Assembly: GCA_036785375.1 (NCBI GenBank)
Contig: JAWMAR010000245.1
Span: forward strand, 1,488,001-1,552,000
From: Leucoraja ocellata
Taxonomy: Eukaryota
DNA: 64,000 bases
Direction of reading: 5' to 3'
The position numbers were made by a program. Numbering within the stretch: position 1 is the stretch's first letter; every line of letters begins with the position of its first letter. Of this stretch, positions 38,201 to 41,200 are shown in pieces.

Positions 38201-41200
38201 CTATTTCCTTCGCTCCATAGATGCTGCTGCACCCGCTGAGTTTCTCCAGCTTTTCTGTGTAACCTGCAAATAATCTATATGGAAAGAGGGATTGGTGAGG
38301 AATAGGAAACGTGCACTTGTTTTGGAGATCCTGCCTGACTAATTAAGTTTTTTTGAAGATAGACAAAAATGCTGAAGAAACTCAGCGGGTGAGGCAGCAT
38401 CTATGGAGCGAAGGAATAGGTGACATTTCGGGTTGTGTCCTGCGCATAATAATAATAATTTTATTTATAGAGCACTTTAAAAACAAACATAGCTGCAACA
38501 AGGTGCTGTACATCACTAATCATTGACAAAAAAGTTAATACACACCAAAAATAACAATCAAAAGAAATAGTAGGAAAAGACATGTAAAATAAAGAAACAT
38601 CAAAAAAACACCACAAACAGAAGCAAAGCCTCAGGCATAGTCAAAAGCCAGGGAGTACAAATGTGTTTTAACACTGGATTTGAAGATGGACAGTGAGGGG
38701 GCCTGTCTGATGTGCAACAGCAGGGTGTTCCAGAGTGCCGGAGCAGCAACAGAGAAAGCTCTATCCCCTCTGAGCCTCCGACTAGACCTCGGTACCTCTA
38801 GGAGCAGCTGACCAGCTGGCCTGAGGGACCGGGCAGGAGCGTATGGGTGGAGCAGCTCAGAGAGGTAAGGCGGGGCGAGCCCATTCAGAGATTTAAAAAC
38901 AAATAACAGTATCTTAAAATGAACCCGAAAGTGCACCGGGAGCCAGTGGAGGGAGGCCAGAATTGGCGATATGTGCTCCCTCTTTCGAGTCCCTGTTAAA
39001 AGGCGACCAGCAGCATTCTGAACCAACTGGAGACGAGCCAGTGAAGAACGAGCAACACCAAAATAGAGCGCGTTACAGTAATCCAGCCTAGATGTAATAA
39101 GAAGTTATGAATTGGATCATTCTCACAGATATCTCTGCAATCAGCTGTGGAGATGGGAAAGGCCAGTCTTTGATCAACTCACTGGAAGGGCAAGCTGGTG
39201 GAGCTCGCTGGCTGGGGGCACTGGCTGGTGGAATGGTCGGCGGGCACTGGTAGAGGGCCGTGACATTGCCTATTTCCTACAGGGTTTCGGCCCGAAACGT
39301 TGGCTATTTCCTTCGCTCCATAGATGCTGCTGCACCTGCTGAGTTTCTCTATGGAGCGAAGGAAATAGGCAACGTTTCGGGCCGAAACCCTTACGGGTTT
39401 CAGCCCGAAACGTTGCCTATTTCCTTCAGGGTTTCAGCCTGAAACGTTGCCTATTTCCTTTGCTCCATAGATGCTGCTGCACCTGCTGAGTTTCTCCAGC
39501 ATTTTTGTCTACCTAAGCTTTAAGACTTGATCCCTTGACTGGTTTTTAAGATGGTGGTCACCAAGTGCAGGTTGGAAGGGTCGAGTCTGAAGAAGGGTCG
39601 CGACCTGAAATCTCCCTTCCCTCCGCAGATGCTGCCTGACCCGATGAGTTCCTCCAGCCCCTTGTGTCTTTGCGAGGGGAAACCTTTGCTCTCTCTCCTA
39701 TTCTCTGTGGCTTGCAAGGTTATGTTCAGGGACAGGCTAGCCGATACCAATCACACGTTGGAACAGTGGGAGGGGCGGCAGGGATCACAGTGAGGGGGGG
39801 TACGGGACAGGAACGTGGCTGTAGTAATGAGTGGGTAATTGTTCTTTTATTTTCTTCTGACAGATGCCAATTTGCACCTTGGCTGCCTTGTTGGGGTAGA
39901 GCTGCACAAGCTTCTGGAAGTTGGCTTTTGCCAGTTCATAATCATTCATGGCAAGTCTCGCCTCACCCATTCTGAAAAGAGCCTTCTCATTGTTTGCATC
40001 CAGCTCTAACGCTTGAAATAAAAGAATCGTATATTCATTTTAGGAATCATCTTACTGCCTGCTATCCTATCATCTATCTGATAGACAATAGGTGCAGGAG
40101 TAGGCCATTCGGCCCTTCGAGCAAGCACCGCCATTCAATGTGACCATGGCTGATCATCCCCAATCAGTACCCCGTTCCTGCCTTCTCCCCATATCCCCTG
40201 ACTGCTATTTTTAAGAGCCCCATCTAGCTCTCTTGAAAGCATCCAGAGAACCTGCCTCCACCGCCCTCTGAGGCAGAGAATTCCACAGACTCACTACTCT
40301 CTGTGAGAAAAAGTGTTTCCTCATCTCCATTCTAAATGCCTTACTCCTTATTCTTAAACTGTGGCCCCTGGTTCTGGACTCCCCCAACATCGGGAACATG
40401 TTTCCTGCCTCTAGCGTGTCCAAGCCCTTAACAATCTTATATGTTTCAATGAGATTCCCTCTCATCCTTTTAAATCCCTCTCAATATCACACTCTGTAAG
40501 TATTAGCTTATTACTCTGCTACCTTCCCACACAGATGGGGAAAAACAAGATGGGCAGCACACTTTGGGGGCCTAAGAGACCTGCCCCATGGTACAAACCT
40601 GTACCATAGAGGAGAAGAAGGGTTTCGACCCGAAACGTTGCCTAGTTCCTTCGCTCCATAGATGCATTTTTGTCTACCCTCGATTTTCCAGCATCTGCAG
40701 TTCCTTCTTAACCACGGTTCAAACTGCATCAGTTCAGTTATTTTGCTTTTTGAAAGAAAAGGTTGGGTTGTGTTAGATGAGAAAGCTGATCTATTTGATA
40801 GGGAAAGAATGAGTAGATATCGCGGTTGATAACTTTGACGCCTTGTGTTCAGGTAATTCGAAGACACGCTTTTGAATACGAGAAGGAAAGCATCCAAAGT
40901 AACTCTGATTAATTGAATTCTTCCTCCTGAAAGGATGGCGTGCATCTACACGCTCCCAGCCCGGTTATTTTGTCTGACTGCACTGAAGTAGTGCTTCAAG
41001 TGTGTTTACGTCCCAGGGTGAACAAAGCCTAAGATGATCACTGCTCGAGCTGGCCCGGTGTCAACAATGCAGATAGCTTATCGGGCCAGCACATCAATGC
41101 TGGACCACCAGCGCGGGCGGGCCCCTGTACATGTAAGAGCAGGTCAGAGCTGCTTCTCTCCCAGGGACAACCAGAACGAATTTACACCCCAGACAACGGA

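What the first reader, a model, noticed from the sequence alone, without database searches (positions are those of the whole stretch)
39837..40080. Inverted, splice-dead copy of FKBP4 exon 9 whose exon part is far better conserved than its intron part
Seen: 39837-40080 is the reverse complement of 30449-30695. The exon portion has 1 substitution in 176 nt (a synonymous CpG change). The intron portion has 5 substitutions plus a 3-nt deletion in 68 nt, including loss of the acceptor (CAG to CAA). A neutral pseudo-exon should differ at a good fraction of the intron rate, not about one-tenth of it. On the + strand the copy is antisense to FKBP4 mRNA, and it is preceded by CCAAT (39747-39751) and a GC box (39768-39779). 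Inference: possible explanations are recent gene conversion (perhaps mRNA-templated, which would be exon-limited) or selection for complementarity. The latter could be an antisense RNA or a read-through transcript pairing with exon 9, which encodes part of the Hsp90-binding TPR domain, giving exon skipping, editing or endo-siRNA. The sample is small, so chance is possible.
Basis: partly seen in the sequence, partly recalled or inferred. Interest (0 to 1): 0.7.

Follow-up and report, generated by a model that had tools for sequence, protein, structure and literature searches.

The report
Dead inverted FKBP4 exon-9 fragment
A broken, back-to-front piece of a skate's FKBP4 gene lies 9 kb downstream of the gene, and its well-kept exon part is most simply explained by copy-correction from the real exon or by chance, not by a function.

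Summary
The sequence facts are right. 39837-40080 is the reverse complement of 30449-30695, with 1 difference in 176 exon nt against 5 substitutions plus a 3-nt deletion in 68 intron nt.

- The copy holds 176 of the 237 nt of FKBP4 exon 9. It has no donor, and its acceptor is now CAA.
- The homology runs on for about 400 nt into a LINE-like repeat (40081-40477 vs 30071-30448). The duplicate is therefore a 641-nt fragment broken inside the exon and inside the repeat.
- It lies between the convergent genes FKBP4 (+) and ASCL4-like (-).

The exon/intron contrast is real but modest:
- Fisher p=0.007.
- p=0.034 once constraint on the parent exon is allowed for.
- Change-point permutations give 174 and 291 of 5000.

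The repeat bodies are not simple sisters, so they cannot serve as a yardstick.

Best reading: a non-functional gene fragment whose terminal 128-176 nt were recently homogenised by non-allelic gene conversion from the parent exon. Chance is the main rival.

I found no promoter signature, RNA family or protein record that supports a function. Related skate genomes and RNA data could not be consulted.

The parts
15108..32740 (+). FKBP4 coding span, ten coding exons (parent gene)
   Evidence: Local tblastn of the named skate protein P0001 (Rhinoraja longicauda FKBP4-like) against the window, read exon by exon. The exon 9 peptide is 97% identical to P0001.
30030..30448 (+). LINE-like repeat fragment in intron 8. 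It is in the sense orientation of FKBP4, and its tandem 7-nt tail units end 71 nt before exon 9.
   Evidence: 20 hits to the repeat core in the window. The pile-up is highest at the tail end and ragged at the other end. Tail units are visible.
30449..30519 (+). Last 71 nt of intron 8 with the working acceptor CAG (parent of the intron part)
30520..30756 (+). FKBP4 exon 9, 237 nt, encoding part of the TPR region. Only 30520-30695 is represented in the copy.
   Evidence: Translation, tblastn. The copy's ORF, which carries the same peptide, matches TPR Pfam families.
39837..40012 (-). Copy of the first 176 nt of exon 9, sense on the - strand. There is one difference, at 39965. The homology stops inside the exon, so there is no donor.
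40013..40080 (-). Copy of the end of intron 8: 5 substitutions and a 3-nt deletion, with the acceptor G changed to A at 40013
40081..40477 (-). LINE-like repeat fragment joined to the intron copy at the same junction as in the parent. Its body is nearer to unrelated family members than to the parent's repeat.
39747..39779 (+).
46611..47174 (-). ASCL4-like single open reading frame. It converges on FKBP4, so the copy lies between the 3' sides of the two genes.
   Evidence: Pfam HLH E=8.1e-19. 88% identity to achaete-scute homolog 4-like of Rhinoraja longicauda.

Best explanation
The feature is a non-functional gene fragment. A 641-nt piece of the FKBP4 locus sits in inverted orientation 9.1 kb downstream, in the spacer between FKBP4 and an ASCL4-like gene. 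The piece consists of the 3' part of a LINE-like repeat in intron 8, the last 71 nt of that intron, and the first 176 nt of exon 9. It cannot be spliced as an exon.

The very high identity of its exon end is most likely the trace of a recent short non-allelic gene conversion from the parent exon into the copy. That conversion would have reset the terminal 128-176 nt. The parent exon is held constant by selection on the protein, which also lowers the expected divergence to about 0.6 of the intron value.

Shown: the anatomy and the counts. Inferred: the conversion event, its direction, and the lack of function.
For: Anatomy:
- Inverted match and its extension into the repeat. The unique shared part is 244 nt and occurs only at these two places.
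- The copy stops at nt 176 of 237 of the exon, the acceptor is CAA, and there is no donor.

Contrast:
- 1/176 against 5/68 plus an indel. Fisher p=0.007, and p=0.034 with relative exon rate 0.62. The relative rate was computed as 0.60 from 34.7 synonymous sites.
- If the intron's 7.35% is taken at face value, 7.8 exon differences are expected and 1 is seen.
- The only exon difference is a CpG transition, the fastest class of change, as expected shortly after a reset.

Fit to gene conversion:
- The block of 128-176 nt lies within published tract estimates (mean 250 bp, CI 63-1000). The published rate is about ten times that of point mutation, and conversion slows as copies diverge (10.1101/135152, passages).
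- The copy carries the same Val codon as the window's exon, where 4 of 4 other batoid FKBP4 proteins have Met. The exon part therefore reflects a recent state of the gene.

No sign of function:
- No Rfam hit.
- GC box at chance frequency.
- No CpG island.
- No protein record carries the copy-specific tail. The search returned 1 hit among 2 candidates, at 61% identity, and that hit is not the copy.
Against: The contrast is weak once the exon boundary is not presupposed: 174 of 5000 and 291 of 5000 permutations reach the observed change-point statistic.

A different yardstick removes the anomaly. If the copy's age is taken from the private changes of its own repeat body (5/303, 1.65% per lineage), then:
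- the exon part is no outlier (3.5-3.6 differences expected, P(<=1)=0.12-0.14);
- the intron part is only mildly high (2.2 expected, P(>=5)=0.08).

Only 244 nt of unique homology is available. That is short for efficient conversion, and the identical block runs to the very end of the homology.

No informative site shows the direction of transfer or a GC bias.

The repeat bodies do not behave as sisters, so the history is more complex than one duplication plus one conversion:
- The copy's repeat is 4.5-6.0% from three unrelated members but 11.8% from the parent's repeat.
- Private changes are 5/303 against 15/235, p=0.005.
- No exclusively shared derived site was found among 325 sites.
Confidence: 0.45

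Rival explanations
1. No conversion took place. A single, fairly young insertion created the fragment, and the uneven spread of 6 substitutions over 244 nt is chance, helped by constraint on the parent exon.
For: With 1.65% per lineage taken from the copy's repeat body, 5.8 substitutions are expected in the 244 nt and 6 are seen. The exon part has P(<=1)=0.12 and the intron part P(>=5)=0.08. The change-point permutation p is 0.035-0.058. The finding was picked post hoc from a 64-kb read-through.
Against: The split 1 versus 5 still has p=0.034 after allowing for constraint, and 0.0037 if the intron rate is taken at face value. A 128-nt run without any difference is long for a copy whose neighbouring 68 nt carry six events.
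Confidence: 0.3
2. The copy is kept complementary to exon 9 by selection. It would act as the template of an antisense RNA from a promoter at about 39.75 kb, or as the partner of a read-through FKBP4 transcript, giving dsRNA, editing, siRNA or exon skipping.
For: On the + strand the copy is antisense to FKBP4. CCAAT and a GC box lie 60-90 nt upstream. An AATAAA at 40017 follows the exon part on the + strand. Pseudogene-derived antisense transcripts are a described class (PMC2984423, listing and start of abstract only).
Against: GGGGCGG occurs 4 times against 3.1 expected, and 31 of 100 shuffles reach 4. CpG o/e of the flank is 0.46 against the window's 0.47. No Rfam family matches. Read-through from FKBP4 would have to pass 16 poly(A) hexamers over 7 kb. 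By inference, selection per site for a 176-bp duplex is very weak, because duplexes and 21-nt siRNAs tolerate scattered mismatches, so it should not hold divergence at one-tenth of neutral.
Confidence: 0.05
3. The homogenisation was templated by spliced FKBP4 mRNA or its cDNA, which would stop exactly at the exon boundary.
For: The first difference on the intron side is the very last intron base. RNA-templated double-strand-break repair has been reported in human cells (PMC12065846, PMC11390984; listing and start of abstracts only).
Against: The change point is not resolved to the boundary; its support interval is 39920-40034. The other end of the block is the end of homology, so it gives no second test. 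Ordinary DNA-templated conversion explains the same data with a commoner process.
Confidence: 0.04
4. The copy is a working coding exon of some - strand transcript and is held by purifying selection on the peptide.
For: The frame is open for 84 codons (39788-40039, -) and matches TPR families (TPR_6 E=2.8e-8). If both copies changed only at synonymous sites, 1.1-2.6 differences are expected and 1 is seen (P=0.28-0.68).
Against: The acceptor is CAA, there is no donor, and the homology ends inside the exon. No protein with the copy-specific tail was found in the 5.8-billion-protein collection (1 hit among 2 candidates, not the copy). The nearest - strand gene is a single-ORF ASCL4-like gene 6.5 kb upstream.
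Confidence: 0.03
5. Assembly or polishing artefact: reads from the true exon were used to correct a more diverged copy, or the copy is mis-placed.
For: The window is from a gapped assembly (N run 54412-54745). Identical short blocks can arise from mis-mapped polishing reads.
Against: The copy has its own unique flanks, its own intron differences and its own repeat body. Mis-mapped genomic reads would correct the intron part as well.
Confidence: 0.05

Closest known systems
Unprocessed gene-fragment duplicates (pseudogene fragments) homogenised by non-allelic gene conversion
   Same: It carries intron sequence, has lost its splice signals, lies near the intact parent, and has a short block of near-identity within the published tract range (10.1101/135152, passages).
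   Different: It is very short (244 nt of unique homology), inverted, fused to a repeat whose body is not sister to the parent's repeat, and the conversion itself is inferred from 7 events only.
LINE-associated chimeric insertions (3' transduction, or template switching between RNAs)
   Same: The order LINE body then downstream flank, in the LINE's sense orientation, is the layout expected of a read-through or pre-mRNA template. The LINE body resembles younger family members, as a template switch would give. LINE-1 recombination with other RNAs is described (10.1101/2025.02.02.635956, listing and start of abstract only).
   Different: No target-site duplication was found: the longest shared word is 5 nt, and 745 of 2000 shuffles do as well. 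No A-rich or repeat tail follows the 3' end. The repeat looks CR1-like rather than L1-like.
Pseudogene-derived natural antisense transcripts and endo-siRNA loci
   Same: An inverted copy of part of a gene could give RNA complementary to the parent mRNA (PMC2984423, listing and start of abstract only).
   Different: No evidence of transcription or of a promoter here. No expression data were available.
RNA-templated double-strand-break repair
   Same: It would give an exon-limited tract (PMC12065846 and PMC11390984, listing and start of abstracts only).
   Different: Nothing in the window requires it, and the boundary is not resolved.

Membership tests
Unprocessed gene-fragment duplicate (pseudogene fragment) | Homology to the parent includes non-coding (intron) sequence | tested here: met
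   68 aligned intron nt plus a shared junction with the intronic repeat
Unprocessed gene-fragment duplicate (pseudogene fragment) | Cannot be expressed as the parent exon (splice signals or frame lost) | tested here: met
   Acceptor CAG changed to CAA, no donor, only 176 of 237 nt present
Unprocessed gene-fragment duplicate (pseudogene fragment) | Intact parent gene in the same genome | tested here: met
   Ten coding exons found exon by exon with a named skate FKBP4-like protein
Non-allelic gene conversion tract | A block significantly more alike than its flanks | tested here: inconclusive
   p=0.007 to 0.034 with the boundary presupposed. 174 and 291 of 5000 permutations without presupposing it.
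Non-allelic gene conversion tract | Tract length in the known range | tested here: met
   128-176 nt against a mean of 250 bp, CI 63-1000
Non-allelic gene conversion tract | Copies group by species rather than by locus in related species | not testable with these tools
LINE-mediated retrocopy or 3' transduction | Target-site duplication | tested here: not met
   Longest shared word between the two flanks is 5 nt; 745 of 2000 shuffles do as well
LINE-mediated retrocopy or 3' transduction | Poly(A) or LINE-type tail at the 3' end of the insert | tested here: not met
   The 40 nt after the 3' end are not A-rich and carry no tail units. An AATAAA does lie 9 nt before the breakpoint.
CR1-like LINE (the repeat fused to the fragment) | Short tandem repeat units at the 3' end and severe 5' truncation of copies | tested here: met
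   7-8-nt tandem units at one end of 17 aligned copies. Coverage falls steadily away from that end. The family traits are taken from PMC4316615 (passages).
CR1-like LINE (the repeat fused to the fragment) | 3' UTR hairpin | tested here: inconclusive
   A 5-bp stem-loop recurs in 3 of 3 folded copies, but the fold energies equal those of shuffles (z 0.06, -0.02, -0.50)
CR1-like LINE (the repeat fused to the fragment) | Reverse transcriptase coding region in longer copies | tested here: not met
   No reverse-transcriptase family among 118 + 59 open frames scanned with Pfam. Only 3' fragments up to about 570 nt are present in the window.
Pseudogene-derived antisense RNA locus | Promoter signature upstream on the antisense strand | tested here: not met
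   GC box at chance frequency. CpG o/e 0.46 against the window's 0.47.
Pseudogene-derived antisense RNA locus | Strand-specific transcripts or small RNAs | not testable with these tools
   No expression data were available

The most novel reading that the evidence does not exclude
The homogenisation is truly exon-limited. Either spliced FKBP4 mRNA served as the repair template for the copy, or the copy is kept complementary to exon 9 as the source of a regulatory antisense or double-stranded RNA. A bolder corollary: the copy acts as a reservoir from which changes can be passed back into the gene. The window's exon and the copy share a Val codon where 4 of 4 other batoids have Met.
Probability: 0.06. 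Interest if true: 0.65.

Novelty: new member of a known kind. Interest (0 to 1): 0.17.

Why it matters
As it stands, the finding matters mainly as an annotation caveat:
- The fragment gives a strong TPR/FKBP4 hit on the wrong strand 7 kb beyond the gene. It could be mis-called as an exon, a gene or an antisense RNA.
- Divergence between a gene fragment and its parent is a poor clock when conversion and repeat mosaicism are in play.

If sister species showed an exon-limited pattern, it would be a rare natural case bearing on RNA-templated repair or on pseudo-exon-derived regulation of an Hsp90 co-chaperone.

Tried and rejected
1. Using the repeat part as a larger neutral yardstick. It gives exon vs intron+repeat p=6e-6. 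I rejected it because the two repeat bodies are not sisters.
2. A simple 'duplication soon after repeat insertion' model. It is contradicted by the unequal private changes, 5/303 against 15/235, p=0.005. My first impression of about 30 versus 10 private changes shrank to 20 versus 11, with 7 undecided, when all family members were used.
3. CpG hypermutability as the cause of the higher intron and repeat divergence. The parts hold only 1-8 CpGs each, and by my reading of the sequence contexts only about 5 of the 38 repeat differences are at CpGs.
4. Retrotransposition hallmarks. No target-site duplication and no tail were found.
5. Search for the copy's own open frame in the protein collection, as a proxy for independent assemblies or related species. 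It returned 1 unnamed hit at 61% identity, which is not the copy and was left unused.
6. Rfam scan of the whole window: 0 matches.
7. A literature search for an FKBP4 antisense transcript or pseudogene found nothing specific to this locus (listing only).
8. Coordinate slip: one search was rejected because my range held a stop codon. The correct open frame was scanned.
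Full report
**What is there.** The window is a skate locus, not human. The translation of the exon at 30520-30756 is 97% identical to 'FKBP4-like' of the skate Rhinoraja longicauda, and other cartilaginous fishes follow.

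I mapped the gene exon by exon with that named protein in a local tblastn. This gave ten coding exons on the + strand between 15108 and 32740. Only single-exon translations and single open frames were used as queries. The N run at 54412-54745 was left as it is.

**The observation.**
- The inverted match is real: arms 30508-30695/39837-40024 (188 nt, 99%) and 30438-30506/40023-40091 (69 nt, 94%), aligned in full.
- In the exon part (30520-30695, 176 nt) there is one difference, at 30567/39965. It is a third-position change of a Gly codon at a CpG.
- In the intron part there are 5 substitutions in 68 aligned nt plus a 3-nt deletion. The first substitution turns the acceptor CAG into CAA.
- CCAAT (39747-39751) and the GC box (39768-39779) are present.

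- Exon 9 is 237 nt long (30520-30756). The copy stops at 30695, inside the exon, so it lacks 61 nt and the donor.
- The homology does not end at 40080. It runs through an identical junction into an interspersed repeat, 40081-40477 against 30448-30071, with 38 substitutions in 366 aligned nt and 6 indels.
- A self-comparison shows that only the 244 nt are unique to the two loci. The next ~400 nt belong to a family whose core motif has 20 hits in the window.
- The repeat's copies pile up at the end that carries 7-8-nt tandem units and are ragged at the other end. This is the pattern of 5'-truncated LINE 3' ends. CR1 elements are described as having severe 5' truncation, a 3' hairpin and an octamer microsatellite (PMC4316615, passages).
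- No reverse-transcriptase frame was found among the 118 + 59 frames scanned, and the small recurrent stem-loop is not better than shuffles. I therefore call the repeat CR1-like without filing it.
- Read in the repeat's sense, the parent locus is repeat, 71 nt of intron, exon 9, all in the FKBP4 sense. The copy, on the - strand, is repeat, intron remnant, 176 nt of exon.
- The fragment lies between FKBP4 (+) and an ASCL4-like open frame at 46611-47174 (-). This is the spacer between the 3' sides of two convergent genes.

**How strong is the exon/intron contrast?**
- Fisher's test for 1/176 against 5/68 gives p=0.007.
- A neutral copy of a constrained exon should differ at about 0.60 of the intron rate, based on 34.7 synonymous sites in 58 codons.
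- A change-point analysis of the 244 nt that does not presuppose the exon boundary puts the best break at 39964 (0/128 against 6/116). Its support interval is 39920-40034. The statistic is reached by 174 of 5000 uniform placements and by 291 of 5000 constraint-weighted placements.
- The heterogeneity is therefore real but modest, and it is not resolved to the exon-intron boundary.

**The repeat part cannot be used to sharpen the test.** Adding it gives p=6e-6, but the two repeat bodies are not sisters:
- Over the first 290 nt, the copy's repeat is 4.5-6.0% from three unrelated members (at 44274, 25630 and 63346) and 11.8% from the parent's repeat.
- Against the subfamily majority, the copy has 5 private changes in 303 sites and the parent 15 in 235 (Fisher p=0.005).
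- None of the 325 sites where the two agree is a derived state shared by them alone.

The fragment is thus a mosaic. Its repeat body looks like a younger family member, while its junction and flank come from FKBP4. Three routes would give this, and I cannot choose among them:
1. A reverse transcriptase copied FKBP4 pre-mRNA from an A-rich stretch of exon 9 and then switched to an active element's RNA inside the repeat. An AATAAA lies 9 nt before the breakpoint.
2. A break beside a resident repeat was repaired by invading the intronic repeat and copying out into its flank.
3. An older DNA duplication had its repeat part later converted by another copy. One candidate is the inverted neighbour at 41356-41472, which is 97% complementary over 117 nt.

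Retrotransposition hallmarks are absent: there is no target-site duplication and no tail.

**Explaining the identical block.** If the copy's own repeat body (1.65% per lineage) dates the event:
- 3.5-3.6 exon differences are expected and 1 is seen (P=0.12-0.14).
- 2.2 intron substitutions are expected and 5 are seen (P=0.08).
- The total of 5.8 expected matches the 6 seen.

Chance is therefore not excluded.

If the intron's 7.35% is the true pairwise divergence, 7.8 exon differences are expected (P=0.004), and a recent reset is needed.

Non-allelic gene conversion supplies that reset without any function:
- In human duplicates the mean tract is estimated at 250 bp (CI 63-1000).
- The per-site rate is about ten times that of point mutation.
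- Conversion slows as copies diverge (10.1101/135152, passages).

A parent exon held constant by selection keeps the exon part of the pair more alike, and so convertible for longer, than the intron part; this last step is my inference. The single exon difference is a CpG transition, as expected soon after a reset.

I rate conversion at 0.45 and chance at 0.30.

**Functional readings.**
- The motif pair upstream is not distinctive. GGGGCGG occurs 4 times against 3.1 expected (31 of 100 shuffles reach 4).
- The flank's CpG ratio equals the window mean (0.46 vs 0.47), and Rfam finds nothing.
- Read-through from FKBP4 would have to pass 16 poly(A) hexamers.
- The copy's frame is open and TPR-like. 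One synonymous difference is compatible with coding constraint on both copies (P=0.28-0.68). However, the fragment has neither acceptor nor donor, and no protein with its specific tail exists in the collection searched (1 hit among 2 candidates, 61% identity, unnamed, left unused).
- The copy shares with the window's exon a Val codon where 4 of 4 other batoids have Met. This shows only that the exon part reflects a recent state of the gene.

**Literature.**
- Read as passages: 10.1101/135152, PMC4316615, PMC13343379.
- Seen only as search listings and the start of abstracts: PMC2984423, 10.1101/2025.02.02.635956, PMC12065846 and PMC11390984.
- The search showed nothing specific on an FKBP4 antisense transcript or pseudo-exon in its listing.
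- Supplements were not consulted.

**Unchecked.**
- Related skate genomes, reads and expression data were not available.
- The bacterial and archaeal genome collection was not used.

**Verdict.** This is an ordinary kind of object, a dead gene fragment fused to a LINE-like repeat, with a modest anomaly that gene conversion or chance explains.

Noticed in passing
window 46611-47174 (-): Single open frame of 188 codons with a bHLH domain (Pfam HLH E=8.1e-19). It is 88% identical to achaete-scute homolog 4-like of Rhinoraja longicauda. That protein and the FKBP4-like protein of that species are both listed with a longest contig of 41,334,687 nt, which suggests conserved neighbourhood.
   Followed up: partly
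window 4337-4615 (-): Open frame matching the N-terminal part of ITFG2 (Pfam Itfg2 E=2.5e-16). ITFG2 therefore lies upstream of FKBP4 on the opposite strand.
   Followed up: no
window 30655-30657 and 30700-30702 (+); copy 39875-39877: The window's exon 9 has Val and His where 4 of 4 other batoid FKBP4 proteins have Met and Arg. The Val codon lies inside the copied part and the copy has it too. The His codon lies 5 nt beyond the end of the copy.
   Followed up: partly
window 40081-40477 vs 30071-30448: The repeat body attached to the copy is closer to unrelated family members (4.5-6.0%) than to the parent's repeat (11.8%). This mosaic has no settled explanation.
   Followed up: yes
window 40083-40199 and 41356-41472: The copy's repeat and a neighbouring inverted member 1.16 kb away are 97% complementary over 117 nt. 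The neighbour is a possible conversion partner.
   Followed up: no
window 42693-42951: Several tandem units with a 66-nt period; one search lists four 61-nt copies 66 nt apart. The unit belongs to a short repeat that is also scattered through the window (families D3 and D8).
   Followed up: no
window 30935-31004, 39358-39427 and many others: A short palindromic (fold-back) repeat of about 70 nt, with 30-46 matches per position in the self-comparison. Two members in the same orientation flank the region that holds the fragment (39586-39665 and 40611-40714).
   Followed up: no
window 39846-39851 (-) and 40017-40022 (+): AATAAA hexamers occur on both strands of the copy. One is on the sense strand, 9 nt before the breakpoint inside exon 9. 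The other is on the + strand, just after the exon part.
   Followed up: partly
window 11028-11561 (+): Weak GIY-YIG match (E=6.1e-4, 20.5 bits, below the 22.6-bit cut-off). It may be the remnant of a Penelope-like element; that attribution is recalled and was not tested.
   Followed up: no
window 60582-61445 (+), 53851-54400, 29301-29850, 9551-10200: CpG-island-like stretches (GC >= 0.55, o/e >= 0.65). One overlaps a 288-codon open frame with no Pfam match, one abuts the N run, and one lies inside FKBP4 intron 8.
   Followed up: no
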